NCBI GenBank assembly: GCA_043754515.1
Contig: JAYUUO010000151.1
Span: 1-11,719 of the forward strand
Origin: Armatimonadota bacterium
GTDB taxonomy: Bacteria > Armatimonadota > Armatimonadia > Armatimonadales > Armatimonadaceae
Direction of reading: 5' to 3'
Length of the DNA: 11,719 nt
Below the pieces are notes generated by a model. That model was not told the DNA's origin, searched no databases, and was given only the letters and a program-made list of their open reading frames with translations. A program made the position numbers and the translations under genes. This document shows positions 2,925 to 9,941 of this stretch, one piece after another; position 1 is the first letter of the stretch; every line of letters starts with the position of its first letter.

Positions 2925-3936
2925 CTACCGGTTGGCGAACAGTTGGCGGATCACCTCGTCGGCTTTGATCTCGTCAATCGTGATGTCGGAGACCGGAAGG
3001 TGCGCGAGCATTTCGCCGGCCCGCTTCGCGCTGTCGGCGCGCGGCACCCGCATCACGGCGTGGAGCGGGTCGGGCACTTCGGCGACCCGCCCGAACGCTT
3101 CTAGTTGAGCGGGATCTATCGCCCGCTCGAAGGTGAGGCGTATCTGTTTCTCGTCCGAATAGCGCGACACCAGGTCGGCGAACGGGCCGTCGAACATCTT
3201 CGCGCCCCCGTCAATGATGATCACCCGCGCGCACAACTCTTTGACGTCCTGCATGTAGTGGGACGTGAGCAGGATCGTGGAGTTGTGCCGGATTTGGTAC
3301 ATCCGCAAAAACTCGCGGATGCGCACCTGCGACACGACGTCCAGCCCGATGGTCGGCTCGTCGAGGAACACGACGCGCGGCGCGTGCAGGAGCGCGGCGA
3401 CCAGTTCGCACTTCATCCGCTCGCCGAGGGATAGTTTGCGCACCTGCGTGTCGAGAATCGCCCCGATGTCGAGCAGTTCGCTCATTTCGTCGAGGCGTGT
3501 CTTGTAGTCAGCGTCGGAAACGTCGTAGATTTCCTTCAGGAGCAGGAGCGATTCGCGGGCGGGCAGATCCCACCAGAGTTGCTGTTTCTGCCCCATGACC
3601 AGCGCGATCTGCCGCAGGAACTCGGGTTTGCGCTGGAACGGCGTGTAGCCGAGTACCTTCGCGTCGCCCGACGTCGGACTAAAGGATCCCGGACAGCATC
3701 TTCAGCGTCGTGGTCTTCCCCGCGCCGTTGGGTCCGAGGAAGCCGACCATCTCGCCCGCGCCAACGCTGATCTCCACGCCCCGGACGGCCTCTTTGACCA
3801 CCTGTTTACGCGACCACAGCCCGCGAATACCGCCCCAGAGTCCCGGCTCTTTTTGTACGGAGATGAATGACTTGCGCAGATCGTGAGTGACAATCACCGG
3901 GTCGGAGGGGGGCGCGTCGCCCGTGGGGGAATTCAC
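2925..3936 (-). pseudogene. ABC transporter ATP-binding protein (COG4586-like) split by a +1 frameshift at about 3679-3683; real pseudogene, sequencing error or programmed frameshift
   Basis: N-terminal ORF has Walker [10 protein letters not shown] and ends SGIL*. The +1 frame continues PTSGDAKVLGYTPFQRKPEFLRQIALVMGQKQQLWWDLP, then signature LSLGERMK, Walker B VVFLDEPT and H-loop TSH. Start taken as GTG 3936 (7 nt after TATGAT); ATG 3948 is the alternative. Confidence 0.85.
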
Positions 3937-4007: not shown

Positions 4008-4985
4008 GTGCTTCCCGTGACTATCTTCTGGCATACCCTCAAAACCCTGCCATACCTGGCCTATTTGCGGGCGGGTGTAGACATTCTGGTCGTCGCCTAC
4101 CTCCTCTATCGTCTGATCCTGCTCGCGAAGGGGCGGCGTGCCTGGCAGATCATCATCGGGATCGGCGTGTTCTTTGCCTTTCTGATCGCCTCGGAGAAGT
4201 TGGGGCTGCTGACACTGAACTGGGTACTGCGGCAGGTGACCCCGCTCGGGCCGGTCGCGGTGGTGATCCTGCTTTACCCCGAGCTACGTGACATTCTGGA
4301 GCGGCTGGGGCGTCTCGACTTCTGGGGCGCGCCGATCCATGTCACCCCGCGCGAGGACGTTTCGATGACCATAGAGAAGGTCATCCGAACCGCCGTGGTG
4401 CTGTCCGGCTTGAAAACCGGGGCACTAATCGTGCTGGAGCGGGAGACAGGCCTCGACGACATCCTGACCACGGGAACCACCATGGATTGCGAGGTATCCC
4501 AGGAACTGCTCGGCACGATCTTTTACGATGGCACGCCGCTTCATGACGGCGCGGTGATCATACGCGGCAACCGCATCGCGGCGGCGGGTTGCCGTTTGCC
4601 CTCGTCGGAGTCTATCAATGTCCATTCCAACGTCCACATGCGCCACCGCGCCGCGATCGGAATGAGCGAGAACAGCGACGCGTTCACGGTGGTCGTTTCC
4701 GAGGAGAGTGGGACGATCTCTGTCGCGGCGAACGGTAAACTAGCGCGCGGCCTGAACGAGGCGAAGTTGCGCCAGCGGCTGCACGAAGGGTTCGGCATCT
4801 CCGCGCCGAAGAAGAACGCCTTCACCGTCGCGCTTCACCTGCCGGATAACATGACGTTCGGCAGGCGCAAAGCCGCTCGGGTGCCCGAAGCCGCCGCGGC
4901 ACAGGCGAATCCCGCCCCGCACGCCGAAAATGAGATGTTACCGCAGGTGCCGCGCGTGATTGAGGAAGGGACACCCGTGCCATGA
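4008..4985 (+). CDS. cdaA: Membrane-bound diadenylate cyclase CdaA/DacA
   Basis: Three N-terminal hydrophobic segments, PELR, GALIV, PLHDGA, RHRAA and VSEESG motifs of the DAC (DisA_N) domain. Followed by a YbbR gene. Start could be GTG 4008 or 4017. Confidence 0.95.
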   Translation: MLPVTIFWHTLKTLPYLAYLRAGVDILVVAYLLYRLILLAKGRRAWQIIIGIGVFFAFLIASEKLGLLTLNWVLRQVTPLGPVAVVILLYPELRDILERLGRLDFWGAPIHVTPREDVSMTIEKVIRTAVVLSGLKTGALIVLERETGLDDILTTGTTMDCEVSQELLGTIFYDGTPLHDGAVIIRGNRIAAAGCRLPSSESINVHSNVHMRHRAAIGMSENSDAFTVVVSEESGTISVAANGKLARGLNEAKLRQRLHEGFGISAPKKNAFTVALHLPDNMTFGRRKAARVPEAAAAQANPAPHAENEMLPQVPRVIEEGTPVP

Positions 4986-5989
4986 GGTTCGCCGCGCTCC
5001 GCTCCAATGTGGGTTATAAACTGTTCTCGCTCGTGCTGTCGGTGATGCTCTACTACATCGCCAGTGCCCAGCAGAACCCGCGCGGCACCCGCGACCAGTA
5101 TGTGCAACCCGAGATCGTGAAGTTGCCCAATACACTGGTGATGAAGGACCCGCCCGCGCTGATGACGCTCAACATTTCCGGCACCGAGGCCGAGCTATCC
5201 CAGTTAGATAAGCAGCCGCTCAAAGCCGTGATTGATGGGTCGCTGGTGAAACCGGGGTTGAACCGCCTCCGGGTCATGATAACGGTTCCGAAGGGGGTGT
5301 CGTTGAATAACACGCCGCCCTTGTCCCAGTTCTCCGTGGAGCGCAAGGAAAGCCGCGACTACGCGGTGGACGTCAACTTCAGCGGGACGCCGCCCGCCGG
5401 TCAGGTGTACGCCGACCCGATCCCGACGCCCGGAACGGTCACGGTTCAGGGTCTCGCCGAGGACTTGAAACGCGTCGGGCGCGTGGCCGCGAGCGTCGAG
5501 CGCGAACGCGACGAACTGGCCGTGGAGCGCAATGTGGATCTGTATGCCGAGGACGATCAGCATCGGCGCGTGGATGGGATCGAGATCACGCCCGCGCGGG
5601 TCAGGGTGCGCGTCAACCTGCGCCCGGTACCCACCACGAAGACCATGCTCCTATCGGCGGAACTGGTCGGCAAGCCCGCGCCCGGCTATCGGATAGCGAC
5701 CTACGACGTGTCGCCCGCCCAGATCGTGGTGCGCGGCGCGGTGGAGGCACTTTCGGCGCAGTCCTCGATCCCGGTCACGGTGGACGTGTCGGGAATCAAA
5801 GCCTCGCAGACCAAAGCGGTCACGCTCGCCCTGCCCCCCGGCATGTCCCCCCAGAAGACGTTGCCCGTATTCCAGGTCCGGCTGATCGTGGAGCCGATAC
5901 CGGCGGTGGAGGGGACTAAGCCAGTCGCGGCGTCTCCCTCGCCTCCATCTTCCTCGGCCCCGTCGCCCGCCGCGAGCGCGTCACCTTAG
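4982..5989 (+). CDS. cdaR: CdaR / YbbR-domain regulator of CdaA
   Basis: ATGA overlap with cdaA; N-terminal anchor KLFSLVLSVMLYY; repeated P-x-x-V-x-V-x-G YbbR-type beta units; Ser/Pro/Ala-rich tail. Confidence 0.9.
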   Translation: MRFAALRSNVGYKLFSLVLSVMLYYIASAQQNPRGTRDQYVQPEIVKLPNTLVMKDPPALMTLNISGTEAELSQLDKQPLKAVIDGSLVKPGLNRLRVMITVPKGVSLNNTPPLSQFSVERKESRDYAVDVNFSGTPPAGQVYADPIPTPGTVTVQGLAEDLKRVGRVAASVERERDELAVERNVDLYAEDDQHRRVDGIEITPARVRVRVNLRPVPTTKTMLLSAELVGKPAPGYRIATYDVSPAQIVVRGAVEALSAQSSIPVTVDVSGIKASQTKAVTLALPPGMSPQKTLPVFQVRLIVEPIPAVEGTKPVAASPSPPSSSAPSPAASASP

Positions 5990-5997
5990 CTATCCCG

Positions 5998-6023
5998 GTA
6001 AACCTATCTGGCCGGGAGGCGTA
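5998..6023 (+). promoter_or_regulatory. Possible ECF-sigma promoter (GTAAAC-N16-CGTA) upstream of the rhomboid gene
   Basis: Resembles the B. subtilis SigW-type consensus TGAAAC-N16-CGTA with exact spacing. The motif is short and could be chance. Confidence 0.3.
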
Positions 6024-6098
6024 GAAAGCATCGGATTACGGGTACATGAGCCGAAAAGCGCGGTGCCCGTTTTGGCCGCGCCCGAAGGAGACTCCCGA

Positions 6099-6866
6099 AT
6101 GATCCCGCTCCGTGACGAGAACCCGATCCGTATCACGCCCTGGCTGACCTATCTACTAATAGCCCTGAACGTCGCCGTCTTCCTGGTAGAGTTTTTCGGC
6201 GGGATAGGTACCACGCGCAGTGGTCTCGCGGGGCCACTGGCGGGCTTCACGATGGTGCCCGCCGAGTTGACCCACGGCCTAGACCTGCCGACGAACGGCG
6301 TTACGATCCGCCCCTTCTGGCTGACTATCTTCACTTCGATGTTTATGCACGGTGGTTGGCTTCATCTGATCTTCAACATGCTGTACCTGTTCATCTTCGG
6401 CAACAACATTGAGGAGGCTCTCGGGCGGCGTCGGTTCTTGTTGTTTTACATACTGTGCGGGCTTGGGGCGGCGGCGGCGCAGATCGCAGTCGCGCCGGAC
6501 AGCACGGTGCCTAACCTCGGGGCGTCCGGCGCGATCGCCGGGGTGCTCGGTGCCTACCTCGTGCTGTATCCGAAGGCAGGCGTTGATTCGCTCCTTTTCC
6601 TCGGTATCTTCTTCACCAAAATCCGTCTCCCCGCCTGGGTCATGCTGGGCTTCTGGATCGTCTCGCAGTTCTTTTCGCAACTCCTCGGCTCGATGATGAC
6701 GCGCCCCGGTTCCACGGGCGGTGTCGCATACATGGCGCACATCGGCGGGTTCATTTGCGGCATGATCTTGATCAAGCTCATGGGGACTAGGGCGAGGAGC
6801 CGGGGCGAGTTCGGTGCCTACAACGCGGGCGGCGGTTACCAGACGGGCGCGAACTATCGGGAGTGA
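6099..6866 (+). CDS. Rhomboid family intramembrane serine protease
   Basis: MIPLRDENP start with AAGGAG SD at 6085-6090; motifs SMFMHGGWLHLIFNM, GASGA (catalytic Ser) and AHIGGF (catalytic His). Confidence 0.95.
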   Translation: MIPLRDENPIRITPWLTYLLIALNVAVFLVEFFGGIGTTRSGLAGPLAGFTMVPAELTHGLDLPTNGVTIRPFWLTIFTSMFMHGGWLHLIFNMLYLFIFGNNIEEALGRRRFLLFYILCGLGAAAAQIAVAPDSTVPNLGASGAIAGVLGAYLVLYPKAGVDSLLFLGIFFTKIRLPAWVMLGFWIVSQFFSQLLGSMMTRPGSTGGVAYMAHIGGFICGMILIKLMGTRARSRGEFGAYNAGGGYQTGANYRE

Positions 6867-7655: not shown

Positions 7656-8750
7656 TCACACGATCCGCGTGCCCTTCCCGATCAGCGTGTTAGAGGCGAA
7701 CACGGACGGGTGCGTCACGGTGACGTCTTCCTCGACCCGGCAGTTATTGTCCATGATCACGTTCGATAGGTTCACGCCGTCCCCGACTATGACGTGCTCC
7801 TCCAGAATACAATCCGTCAGGGTCGCGTTGTTGCCGACTTTGCAGTCCGGCCCGATCACGCTCCGCCCGGCGATGGAGGCGCCGGCACCGATGCGTGCGT
7901 TTCTACCGATGTGTACGGTGGGCGCGATGTGCGCCGTCTCGTCCACGAACGCGCCTTCCTCTGCCCAGTAGCCGCGTTCCATCCACGCGCCGGGCACCTC
8001 GACCGTGATTTCGTGGTTCAGGATCGCGTCGGTCGCCTGCCGGTACTGCTCGGGTCGGCCGATGTCGAGCCAGTAGCCGGTCGCGGCGAACGCGAACACC
8101 GGTTTACCCTGCTCCAGTAATTGCGGGTATGTCTCGCGCTCGATGGACACGGGGCGCCCCGTCGGGATCGCGTCCAGTGCCTCCGGCTCCATGATGTAGA
8201 TGCCCGCGTTGATGTAGTCTATGCCAGTCGGCTCCATGTTCGGGTTCGCGGCGAGCATCTTTTTGGTCGCTTCACTCGGTTCGCGGAACTCTCTGACCCG
8301 CCCGTGTTCGTCGGTGATGATCACGCCGTACGGCGAGGGCGAGGGGACATCTTTGAGCGTCAAAGTCACCAAGGCGTGGTTGTCCTTGTGGAACCGGATG
8401 ATTTCGGACAGATCGAAGTCGGTCAACACGTCACCGTTGAGCACCACGAATGTGTCCCGGCCGGTCAGGTTCTGCGCGTTCTTGATCGCGCCGGCAGTGC
8501 CGAGCGGCGTGTCCTCGATCGCGTAGCGCATGGAGACACCGAACTTCGAGCCGTCCCCGAAGTGCCCCTGTATCTTATCCGCCATGTAGTTCGTGCAGAA
8601 GATCACCTCGTCAATGCCGTGCCGCTTCAGGAGTGCCACCTGATACTCCAGAAAGGCGCGGTTGACGACGGGGATCAGCGGCTTGGGGCGCGAATAGGTC
8701 AGCGGACGGAGACGGGTTCCAGCCCCGCCAGCGATAATAATGCCCTTCAT
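7656..8750 (-). CDS. NDP-sugar pyrophosphorylase (mannose-1-phosphate guanylyltransferase-like) with C-terminal hexapeptide-repeat beta-helix
   Basis: Motifs IAGGAGTRLRPLT..RPKPL, PLGTAGA, VLNGDV, INAGIY and YWLDIG, then left-handed beta-helix repeats. Confidence 0.92.
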   Translation of the reverse strand: MKGIIIAGGAGTRLRPLTYSRPKPLIPVVNRAFLEYQVALLKRHGIDEVIFCTNYMADKIQGHFGDGSKFGVSMRYAIEDTPLGTAGAIKNAQNLTGRDTFVVLNGDVLTDFDLSEIIRFHKDNHALVTLTLKDVPSPSPYGVIITDEHGRVREFREPSEATKKMLAANPNMEPTGIDYINAGIYIMEPEALDAIPTGRPVSIERETYPQLLEQGKPVFAFAATGYWLDIGRPEQYRQATDAILNHEITVEVPGAWMERGYWAEEGAFVDETAHIAPTVHIGRNARIGAGASIAGRSVIGPDCKVGNNATLTDCILEEHVIVGDGVNLSNVIMDNNCRVEEDVTVTHPSVFASNTLIGKGTRIV

Positions 8751-9619
8751 ACGAGGTCGTGTTCCTTGTGTTCTGTCATAATGCTTGAAAGGTCGCGGCG
8801 GAACGCCGCCCCCGTCTCTCCGTCCGCCAGCGCGAACAGCACGAACGCGCGGTAGTAGGAGTCGAACCCGCCGATGTCGTGCCGCGATTCTCCCGCGGCG
8901 AGCGGTTCGGCAATCCCGGTATGCCCCCGCGCGAGTAACTGTCGCAAAGCGTCCGTCAGCGACAACTCGCCGCTCGCGTCAAGAGGCGACCGGCGTAGCG
9001 CGTCGAACACCGCGAACGGCAAGACATATCGGGCGGATGCCGCGAAACGACTCGGTGCTTGCGCGGGTGATGGTTTCTCCACGATATTCTGTATTGCGAA
9101 AGAAGTAAAACAACCGTCTTCCCCCGCCGGGGTGGACGGCTCCACGATACCGTACCGGGAGACCAACTCCTCCGGGACGCGTTGCACCGCGAGTGCGAGG
9201 GTGCGCGCGTCCGCGTCCGCGTGGCGCATCAGCCGCCGCGTCAATCCCCCCGGCACCGGCTCGCGGATCACCGCGTCCCCGAGCGCGAGTAGGAACGGGC
9301 GGTCCGGTTCCAGAAGCGGTTCCGCGCACGCCACGGCATCCCCGAGGCCGCGCGCCTCTGTCTGCAACGCGTAGCCGAACTCAGTAGCCCCGTCCCCCGC
9401 CCCGATCACACCACGCAGGAGCGATTCCTTGGCGGGCGAGACGACGAAGATAACGCGCCGTATACCCGCCGCTCCGAGTTCCGCGACCAGATGTTGCAAT
9501 GCCGTCCGGCGTCCGAGCGGTAGCAATTCTTTAGGCAGGGCATCGGAGAGCGGCCGCATCCGGCTCCCTTTACCGGCTACGGGAACGACCGCTTCTGTCA
9601 CGCTAGCCTGCTCATTCAT
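8747..9619 (-). CDS. galU: UTP--glucose-1-phosphate uridylyltransferase-like sugar-phosphate nucleotidyltransferase
   Basis: Motifs AVVPVAGKGSRMRP..LPKELLP, Q..ARGLGDAV, LGD, SRYGIV, IVEKP, RYV, GELSLTDA and RHDIG. ATGA overlap with the next gene. Start taken at 9619; an in-frame ATG also lies at 9661. Confidence 0.8.
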   Translation of the reverse strand: MNEQASVTEAVVPVAGKGSRMRPLSDALPKELLPLGRRTALQHLVAELGAAGIRRVIFVVSPAKESLLRGVIGAGDGATEFGYALQTEARGLGDAVACAEPLLEPDRPFLLALGDAVIREPVPGGLTRRLMRHADADARTLALAVQRVPEELVSRYGIVEPSTPAGEDGCFTSFAIQNIVEKPSPAQAPSRFAASARYVLPFAVFDALRRSPLDASGELSLTDALRQLLARGHTGIAEPLAAGESRHDIGGFDSYYRAFVLFALADGETGAAFRRDLSSIMTEHKEHDLV

Positions 9620-9625
9620 GGTTAT

Positions 9626-9680
9626 AAAAAAGAAAAAGGACGCCTGACAGGGCGGCGTCATAGCCGCCCGGCGCGTCCTT
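9626..9680 (-). terminator. Intrinsic terminator or attenuator immediately upstream of the galU-like start
   Basis: AAGGACGC-gcc-GGGCGGC-tatgac-GCCGCCC-tgtcag-GCGTCCTT, with the 3' end running into the U tract TTTTTCTTTTTT. Confidence 0.8.
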
Positions 9681-9707
9681 ACGTCATTGGTTCACAAAAC
9701 TGGTATC

Positions 9708-9736
9708 AGGATAGCACGAATCGTTATAGGTGTCAA
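9708..9736 (-). promoter_or_regulatory. Sigma70-type promoter TTGACA-N17-TATCCT with extended -10 TG
   Basis: Perfect -35 (9736-9731), 17-nt spacer and TGc-TATCCT (hexamer 9713-9708). Predicted start site about 9701. Confidence 0.75.
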
Positions 9737-9744
9737 AGTGGGAA

Positions 9745-9865
9745 GGTGCCGTTCCAGGGCGACTGCCTGATACTCATGTTGCTAGCTTCAGGTATGTTTG
9801 CGGGTGCGTGGCGTAAGTGTTTCCGCCAGGTCGCCGCGCATTCGAGTTGTGGAAGTCGCCGAACC
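9745..9865 (-). ncRNA. Candidate structured non-coding RNA with loose 6S-like features
   Basis: Hand-found nested helices: GTTC/GAAC plus GGCGACT/AGTCGCC closing stem; TGCG/CGCA plus TGGCG/CGCCA arm; CCTGA/TCAGG arm. Family assignment is unverified. Confidence 0.4.
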
Positions 9866-9941
9866 ATAATGCAATCGGCCTGAGCGGGGCGGTTAAGTCC
9901 TGGCGTAACCGGAGCCGCCGTTCGAGCGTCTCTATAGCGAT

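What the first reader, a model, noticed from the sequence alone, without database searches (positions are those of the whole stretch)
9620..9736. Promoter, ~76-nt leader and terminator in front of an NDP-sugar operon: undescribed attenuator or small RNA, possibly UTP-sensing
Seen: a near-consensus promoter (TTGACA-17-TGcTATCCT) would start an RNA at about 9701 beginning AGUUUUG. That RNA ends in a GC-rich hairpin plus an 11-U tract only 6 nt before the galU-like ATG, which has no SD. Known: initially transcribed U-runs mediate UTP-dependent reiterative transcription at E. coli pyrBI, carAB, upp and codBA, and GalU consumes UTP. I recognise no riboswitch or PyrR site here. Inference: either a conditional attenuator controlling nucleotide-sugar synthesis or a stand-alone sRNA.
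Basis: partly seen in the sequence, partly recalled or inferred. Interest (0 to 1): 0.72.

Follow-up and report, generated by a model that had tools for sequence, protein, structure and literature searches.

The report
Leaky leader terminator before sugar operon
A promoter followed by a conserved, terminator-shaped RNA hairpin sits in front of a nucleotide-sugar operon in one family of Armatimonadota bacteria; it likely works as a leaky transcription stop rather than a UTP sensor or a free small RNA, and the same design stands before several other housekeeping genes of that family.

Summary
The promoter, hairpin and U-tract are real. A covariance model finds the hairpin ahead of this nucleotidyltransferase operon in 13 of 32 family genomes (8 genera; 12 were training data, one independent). 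Only the promoter, the 6-7 bp stem base (GGACGC/GCGUCC) and the adjoining U-tract are conserved. The spacer is not, and the initial U-run occurs in 1 of 12 leaders, so UTP-sensing by slippage is not supported. I found no aptamer, shared uORF, antiterminator, NusG paralogue or Rfam match. Controls changed the reading: hairpin-plus-U-tract leaders, mostly with their own conserved stem base, also precede secE-nusG (20/20), tig (29/29, after tRNAs), rimO (20/29), ffh (15/26) and nusA (4/5). Most likely this is a sensor-less premature terminator that works like the rimP-leader or GraL, with read-through probably set by general elongation factors. Termination itself is untested; no real RNA data were available. 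The element appears undescribed (four paper searches), and this scan had no look-alike on other DNA. Verdict: new member of a known kind, modest interest. The family-wide set is the more interesting lead.

The parts
9731..9736 (-). -35 hexamer TTGACA
   Evidence: a TTGAC-17/18-TAnnnT match lies upstream of the hairpin in 12 of 14 homologous leaders
9708..9716 (-). extended -10 element TG-c-TATCCT
9679..9701 (-). predicted +1 (9701, inferred) and unconserved 5' spacer, starting AGUUUUG and holding a 2-codon AUG-ACG-UAA
   Evidence: spacer identity 0.31 between genera, early UUU in 1 of 12; AUG in 8 of 14 spacers vs 5.7 expected, no shared frame or peptide
9638..9678 (-). bulged terminator-like hairpin: conserved basal helix GGACGC (9678-9673) / GCGUCC (9643-9638), 3-nt bulge, upper helix 9669-9663 / 9656-9650
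   Evidence: fold; arms 0.94 and 0.88 identical between genera, middle 0.49 vs 0.33 shuffled; pair counts; model search
9626..9637 (-). U-tract U5-C-U6 directly after the stem
   Evidence: four U columns invariant in 14 of 14 aligned sequences; 5-7 U in the first 8 bases in 14 of 14
8747..9619 (-). GalU-like sugar-1-phosphate nucleotidyltransferase, 290 aa, first gene of the operon
   Evidence: PF00483; best NCBIfam model galU but below cut-off; found in 29 of 32 family genomes at E<=1e-30
7656..8750 (-). mannose-1-phosphate guanylyltransferase-like protein (NTP transferase + hexapeptide domain), 364 aa, start overlapping the upstream stop
   Evidence: NF052502 285 bits, below cut-off 440; 31 of 32 family genomes, 0 of 39 in the sister family at E<=1e-90

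Best explanation
The element is a conserved promoter followed by a hairpin and U-tract that likely acts as a leaky premature intrinsic terminator, so that most transcripts would stop at about 71 nt and a fraction would read through into the nucleotide-sugar operon. Shown: the sequence, the fold, conservation of promoter, stem base and U-tract, and the absence of a conserved aptamer, uORF or antiterminator. Inferred: RNA polymerase starts near 9701, pauses on the U-tract, and releases when the short (6-8 bp) basal helix closes. The bulge and the interrupted tract make it a suboptimal terminator, so the read-through fraction is probably set by general elongation factors (NusA, possibly NusG) and elongation rate rather than by a dedicated metabolite sensor. 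It is one of a small set of such leader terminators that this family keeps in front of housekeeping operons (secE-nusG, nusA, tig, rimO, ffh).
For: U-tract starts exactly at the stem base in all 14 leaders, while the first AUG lies 7-89 nt after the stem and the first real gene 163 nt after the hit in G013: terminator geometry, not start-site geometry. Model hit at this locus in 13 of 32 family genomes, including G013, which was not in the training set (E 1.35e-3). In G009 a tRNA-Thr gene lies between promoter and hairpin, the place where a terminator is needed. Basal helix probability about 1.0 in 12 of 14 leaders; opening it costs 5.2-15.3 kcal/mol, with no shared alternative fold. Hairpin-plus-U-tract leaders at secE-nusG 20/20, tig 29/29, rimO 20/29 and ffh 15/26, nusA 4/5; the 3' terminator of tig is not conserved. 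In G000, 5 of 124 consensus promoters carry such a site within 120 nt vs 0-3 in ten shuffles. The rimP-leader is described as a short conserved terminator with no larger element, no visible antiterminator and 4-130 nt to the gene (PMC2965389, passages); NusA promotes termination at terminators with weak hairpins or interrupted U-tracts and autoregulates through its own leader in B. subtilis (PMC12288461, passages).
Against: No transcript data: start, termination and read-through are all unmeasured. Covariation is weak (1 of 7 basal pairs has a two-sided change; pairs with two-sided change 3 vs 2.0 in shuffles, 157/500), so the fold rests on retained pairing. The element is missing in G004, G010, G011 and in the 8 loci of genus g5 that I could read, and genus g6 has a shorter hairpin with a poorer U-tract, so termination may not be the only or constant role. 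The near-invariant stem base (a GCGUC(C) end in only 1 of 93 ordinary after-gene sites) could equally mark a dedicated protein site. The local NusG has S-T where B. subtilis has the pause-promoting N81-T82 (alignment by eye to a recalled motif), which is inconclusive. The control genes secE, rimO and ffh were picked because G000 had a hairpin there, so they show recurrence and conservation, not prevalence.
Confidence: 0.5

Rival explanations
1. 5' stabilising hairpin plus U-rich translation enhancer or standby site (S1-type) for a gene without SD; little or no termination.
For: AUG within 7-19 nt of the stem in 9 of 14 leaders; no SD in the window; genus g6 keeps a perfect hairpin about 8 nt from the predicted start with a degraded tract; U-rich regions act as enhancers of rnd mRNA (PMC5934652, passages; that the rnd tract follows a stem-loop is recalled).
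Against: The tract is fixed to the stem, not to the AUG (7-89 nt, and 163 nt in G013); upstream of start codons this genome is A-rich, not U-rich; only 20 of 412 hairpin+U sites have an in-frame ATG within 40 nt.
Confidence: 0.2
2. Conditional attenuator read by a dedicated RNA-binding protein (possibly one of the operon's own nucleotidyltransferases) that binds the bulged stem and allows read-through when nucleotide sugars are short.
For: Stem base almost invariant across 8 genera and upper part above chance (0.49 vs 0.33); the rimP-leader paper reads such conservation without an antiterminator as a sign of protein recognition; element travels with the operon.
Against: Control leaders show the same kind of locus-specific stem-base conservation; loop and bulge vary in sequence and register; no regulator gene is linked in the 11 neighbourhoods read; one NusG per genome; the element persists where the galU-like gene was not found.
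Confidence: 0.15
3. Stand-alone trans-acting small RNA of about 70 nt, with the operon transcribed separately or by incidental read-through.
For: Strong promoter plus terminator would give an abundant short RNA; GraL is a precedent for a terminated leader that also acts in trans (PMC6829880, first part read); G013 may have a second -10-like site before its guanylyltransferase-like gene (seen by eye).
Against: No conserved single-stranded seed (spacer identity 0.31; 16-40 nt where a promoter is close); single copy per genome, always ahead of the same operon; too little room for another promoter in most genomes; CsrA found in only 2 of the 13 element-bearing genomes.
Confidence: 0.07
4. UTP-sensing through reiterative transcription on the initial AGUUUU, as at pyrBI, carAB, upp, codBA or gal.
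For: The window's predicted start has four U at +3 to +6; carAB needs only GUUU, and galETKM was among the promoters compared (PMC6245113, passages). UUU also occurs later in the first 10 nt of two more long leaders and in the g6 leaders.
Against: Early UUU in 1 of 12 leaders and in 0 of the 3 same-genus relatives at the strict position; single changes in the T-run abolish this control at carAB; extra 5' U could not pair with the C/U-rich 3' arm except by weak G-U pairs, unlike the poly-G of pyrG (10.1101/732214, passages). Local stuttering at this one promoter is not excluded.
Confidence: 0.04
5. Compact riboswitch in which the bulged terminator itself binds a nucleotide sugar or sugar phosphate.
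For: Conserved position ahead of a metabolic operon; semi-conserved upper stem and loop.
Against: No conserved sequence 5' of the stem, no alternative fold, no Rfam hit; conserved bases are the paired ones.
Confidence: 0.03

Closest known systems
rimP-leader (rimP-nusA-infB operon; PMC2965389)
   Same: Short conserved 5' terminator with a locus-specific stem sequence, no larger conserved element, no visible antiterminator, variable distance to the gene.
   Different: Different stem base (GGACGC/GCGUCC, not GGGc/gCCC next to the U-tract), longer bulged stem, different downstream genes, confined to one family; no Rfam match.
GraL / greA leader terminator of E. coli (PMC6829880)
   Same: Promoter, short leader and intrinsic terminator ahead of a gene, giving a short RNA; about one third of greA transcripts read through.
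   Different: GraL lies before an elongation factor that autoregulates through it and also acts in trans; neither is shown here, and the greA leader was modelled with an antiterminator.
UTP- and CTP-sensitive reiterative transcription (pyrBI, carAB, upp, codBA; B. subtilis pyrG attenuator)
   Same: The window's own start has a U-run; pyrG also pairs a short leader with a terminator.
   Different: The homopolymer start is not conserved (1 of 12) and no leader starts with GGG.
NusG-paralogue antitermination leaders (RfaH/ops, LoaP, UpxY; properties recalled)
   Same: Leader signal ahead of sugar-nucleotide or polysaccharide genes.
   Different: One full NusG-family gene per genome in 31 of 32 family genomes, plus one contig-edge fragment.
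rnd U-rich translational enhancer (via PMC5934652; stem-loop context recalled)
   Same: U-rich stretch shortly before a start codon.
   Different: Here the tract keeps its place relative to the stem while the start codon moves.

Membership tests
rimP-leader-type premature terminator (kind) | short conserved hairpin + U-tract in the 5' leader with no larger conserved element | tested here: met
   arms 0.94/0.88 vs spacer 0.31 identity; promoter upstream in 12 of 14
rimP-leader-type premature terminator (kind) | no visible antiterminator fold | tested here: met
   open state costs 5.2-15.3 kcal/mol; basal helix P about 1 in 12 of 14; L127 0.07 and L135 0.68 are exceptions
rimP-leader-type premature terminator (kind) | actual partial termination in vivo, factor-dependent | not testable with these tools
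   no RNA holder listed
rimP-leader (family) | GGGc...gCCC stem directly before the U-tract, upstream of rimP-nusA | tested here: not met
   stem base is GGACGC/GCGUCC; genes are nucleotidyltransferases; no Rfam hit
UTP-sensitive reiterative transcription (pyrBI/carAB/upp/codBA) | run of at least 3 T right after the start site, kept in orthologues | tested here: not met
   present in the window, 1 of 12 leaders overall
UTP-sensitive reiterative transcription (pyrBI/carAB/upp/codBA) | UTP-dependent slippage products | not testable with these tools
   needs in vitro transcription
pyrG-type slippage attenuator | GGG start that can pair with a pyrimidine-rich terminator arm | tested here: not met
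   none of 12 initial sequences starts GGG; 5' arm is purine/GC-rich
Riboswitch or PyrR/T-box leader | conserved sensor domain 5' of the terminator; Rfam match | tested here: not met
Leader-peptide attenuator | conserved uORF overlapping an antiterminator | tested here: not met
   AUG in 8 of 14 spacers vs 5.7 expected; three frames, 2-75 codons, no shared peptide
RfaH/LoaP/UpxY antitermination | a NusG paralogue in the genome | tested here: not met
CsrB/RsmZ-type sponge sRNA | CsrA present wherever the RNA is | tested here: not met
   CsrA found in 6 of 32 genomes, 2 of the 13 with the element, not in G000
Base-pairing sRNA | conserved single-stranded seed | tested here: not met
B. subtilis-type NusG-dependent pause/terminator | NusG with N81/T82 and a TTNTTT motif | tested here: inconclusive
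   tract contains TTCTTT (trivial in any U-tract); local NusG has S-T at that place by eye

The most novel reading that the evidence does not exclude
Armatimonadaceae gate a set of growth genes (secE-nusG, nusA, tig-clpP, ffh, rimO and this nucleotide-sugar operon) with promoter-proximal terminators that carry no sensor, and one global input (NusA/NusG level or an unknown antitermination factor) opens them together, tying sugar-nucleotide supply to the transcription, translation and export machinery.
Probability: 0.15. Interest if true: 0.65.

Novelty: new member of a known kind. Interest (0 to 1): 0.32.

Why it matters
As a single element it adds an unannotated, family-conserved leader terminator to a known class and removes a tempting UTP-sensor reading. 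The wider point is that this little-studied family keeps terminator-shaped hairpins, some only 6-16 nt past the -10, before several core operons including both Nus factor genes. That gives a compact natural set for asking what sets read-through at sensor-less attenuators such as the rimP-leader, and a caution: a conserved terminator before a metabolic operon is not by itself evidence of metabolite sensing.

Tried and rejected
Rfam at E<=1 on the window: nothing; on 12 related and control loci only tRNAs and sub-threshold miRNA/sRNA matches, none on the leaders. Paralogues in the own genome: blastn/nhmmer found none; the model's next hit was the tig-leader hairpin at E 0.08. Single-protein scan of genome contigs found nothing; the alignment scans gave 160 loci, and the motif appeared only in Armatimonadaceae-like ones. 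Sister-family model hits (11 of 39 genomes) were ordinary terminators or a different leader. 'Stem base is just the local terminator style': rejected, 1 of 93 after-gene sites (the scan missed at least one such site, the tig 3' terminator). CsrA binding to upstream GGA: rejected. Start codon inside the 5' arm (GUG/AUG in 6 leaders, by eye): frames differ and it is absent in the window's genus. In-frame ATG at 9661 in the loop: the two closest orthologues begin at the position of 9619. Expression: no RNA holder listed; the two runs laid were probably DNA and uninformative. Paper searches with no relevant hit. The 1992 rnd paper is not held. Earlier scan findings by sequence and by relatives: none.

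Full report
Observation. The minus strand carries TTGACA (9736-9731), 17 nt, and TGcTATCCT ending at 9708. A start at 9701 is inferred from spacing. The RNA would run AGUUUUG..., then a hairpin at 9678-9638 and a U5-C-U6 tract at 9637-9626, 6 nt before the ATG at 9619. The 76-nt stretch folds at -30.1 kcal/mol (z -3.44; 1 of 200 shuffles). The promoter match alone is not above chance (4 sites vs 3.4 expected). Rfam gives nothing at E<=1. The downstream genes are a GalU-like and a mannose-1-phosphate guanylyltransferase-like nucleotidyltransferase, both below the curated cut-offs. In relatives the operon often continues with a DegT-type aminotransferase and further nucleotidyltransferases. Record titles of the closest relatives name Armatimonadota and Armatimonadaceae.

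Conservation. In 22 orthologous loci, 11 relatives and the window showed the same hairpin. A model built from 14 sequences and run over 71 genomes of the order hit this locus in 13 of 32 family genomes from 8 genera. Twelve of these were training sequences. The independent hit, G013 (E 1.35e-3), has promoter and hairpin 163 nt before the guanylyltransferase-like gene, in a genome where the galU-like gene was not found at E<=1e-30. Genus g6 has a shorter, perfect hairpin with a similar 3' arm and a poorer U-tract in 5 of 5 readable loci. The element was not seen in G004, G010, G011, in 8 readable loci of genus g5, or in the more distant Armatimonadota loci I read. For the per-segment counts I used 14 leaders: the 13 genomes plus metagenome locus L045; L042 and L043 were left out as near-duplicates.

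What is conserved. Between 8 genus representatives the 5' arm is 0.94 identical, the 3' arm 0.88, the tail 0.62 and the 15 nt before the stem 0.31; the middle scores 0.49 against 0.33 shuffled. A promoter match lies upstream in 12 of 14, 22-46 nt from the stem in 10 of them. In G009 a tRNA-Thr gene sits between promoter and hairpin. The U-tract always begins at the stem base, whereas the first AUG is 7-89 nt away. Basal pairs are kept in 11-14 of 14 sequences, but covariation is weak: one basal pair has two-sided changes, and the count of such pairs does not beat shuffles (157/500), although cells do (3/500).

Mechanisms tested and not supported. UTP slippage: an early UUU occurs in 1 of 12 leaders; at carAB single changes in the T-run abolish control (PMC6245113, passages). 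UUU a few bases later in two more long leaders and in g6 is noted but lies behind G-C anchors. pyrG-type slippage needs a GGG start (10.1101/732214, passages), which no leader has. Riboswitch or sRNA seed: nothing conserved 5' of the stem. Antiterminator: the basal helix has probability about 1 in 12 of 14 leaders, and freeing its 3' arm costs 5.2-15.3 kcal/mol with no shared alternative. Leader peptide: AUG in 8 of 14 spacers vs 5.7 expected, in three frames, no shared peptide; I checked this because earlier scan notes report such attenuators in this genome. NusG paralogue: one full gene per genome. CsrA: 2 of the 13 genomes. Rho and NusA are present.

Controls that changed the reading. The model's second hit in the own genome was a hairpin between two tRNA genes and tig. 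Across the family this hairpin is present in 29 of 29 loci with its own conserved base, while the tig 3' terminator is not conserved. In G000, 5 of 124 intergenic consensus promoters have a hairpin plus U-tract in the first 120 nt (shuffles 0-3); looser promoter scores gave 8 of 211 and 11 of 280 (shuffles 1-5 and 1-9). These counts rest on my own crude gene calls. I followed three of the five: secE-nusG has the site in 20 of 20 loci (20 of 31 nusG hits fetched, chosen to span genera), 6-16 nt past the -10 where a promoter matched; rimO in 20 of 29 and ffh in 15 of 26 (by eye 19 and 11 are the homologous hairpin; 1 and 2 loci were dropped for short upstream sequence). nusA, chosen from the literature, has one in 4 of 5 genomes, not in G000. 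rimO, ffh and tig were confirmed by family models; secE was named from its sequence and place before nusG. So stem-base conservation is a shared property of leader terminators here and does not point to sugar or UTP sensing. These controls were not picked blind and say nothing on prevalence.

How it most likely works. Inferred: the promoter fires strongly, the polymerase pauses on the U-tract, the short basal helix closes and most complexes release a roughly 71-nt RNA; the rest read into the operon. A bulged stem and interrupted tract fit a suboptimal terminator, the type that NusA strengthens in B. subtilis, where nusA is itself autoregulated by a leader terminator (PMC12288461, passages). 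That both Nus genes carry such leaders here fits. I put this at 0.5, a U-rich translation enhancer or stability hairpin at 0.2 (it may coexist), a dedicated protein-read attenuator at 0.15, a trans-acting sRNA at 0.07, UTP slippage at 0.04 and a riboswitch at 0.03. None of the transcription steps is shown: no RNA holder was listed.

Comparison with what is known. It works like the rimP-leader, described as a short conserved terminator with a specific stem sequence, no larger element and no antiterminator, 4-130 nt from the gene (PMC2965389: abstract, passages, section 5), and like GraL, where about a third of transcripts read through (PMC6829880, first of six parts). It is not a member of either family: different stem, different genes, no Rfam match. 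That paper predicts 15,930 putative attenuators in 302 genomes, so 5' terminators are common. Its supplement has 4 rows with 'uridylyltransferase', 4 with 'guanylyltransferase' and none with 'Armatimon' (I saw the first two of each, in Bacillus and Burkholderia). For rnd I saw only a passage in PMC5934652.

Novelty. Four searches found no description of this element. The library lacks most subscription papers, and I did not see the supplements of large RNA-motif surveys, which could list it. The scan has no look-alike, though it has noted similar promoter-terminator leaders on unrelated DNA. Verdict: new member of a known kind, interest 0.32. The boldest open reading is a family-wide set of sensor-less leader terminators opened by one global input (probability 0.15, interest 0.65).

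Noticed in passing
G000:C64 near 5876-5970 (L345) and L350-L369: secE-nusG leader: CAGGG...CCCUG hairpin plus U-tract in 20 of 20 family loci, 6-16 nt past the -10 where a promoter matched; candidate NusG autoregulatory terminator; no Rfam hit in L345.
   Followed up: partly
L038:3348-3390 (G000:C22) and L244-L272: Conserved hairpin + U-tract between tRNA-Leu/tRNA-Gly and tig in 29 of 29 loci; stem base resembles this element's (GGAYRC/GYRUCC).
   Followed up: partly
L274 (rimO), L275 (ffh), L370-L373 (nusA): Further conserved promoter-proximal hairpin + U-tract leaders.
   Followed up: partly
window 9756-9882: Degenerate copy of a short multicopy element with terminal inverted repeats just upstream of the -35; 46 copies of the terminal motif in the genome; MITE-like by appearance.
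   Followed up: partly
L222-L224, L226, L230, L231, L233, L234: In the sister family, a different conserved leader ending in a GACGC...GCGUC terminator precedes a ~100-aa gene with a hydrophobic C-terminus; no Rfam hit on it in L222 and L224.
   Followed up: no
window 7591-7400 and 7372-6929 (-): Two adjacent ORFs that look by eye like one nucleotidyltransferase-like gene in two pieces; no Pfam or NCBIfam hit.
   Followed up: no
G000:C231 near 3605-3750 (L346): Long hairpin + U-tract in the leader of a glutamine-synthetase-like gene (named by eye); no Rfam hit.
   Followed up: no
L132:1773-1848 (G009): tRNA-Thr(CGU) lies between the promoter and the hairpin in one genome only of those scanned.
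   Followed up: partly
window 4008-6866 (+): cdaA, YbbR-domain gene and a rhomboid gene in a row.
   Followed up: no
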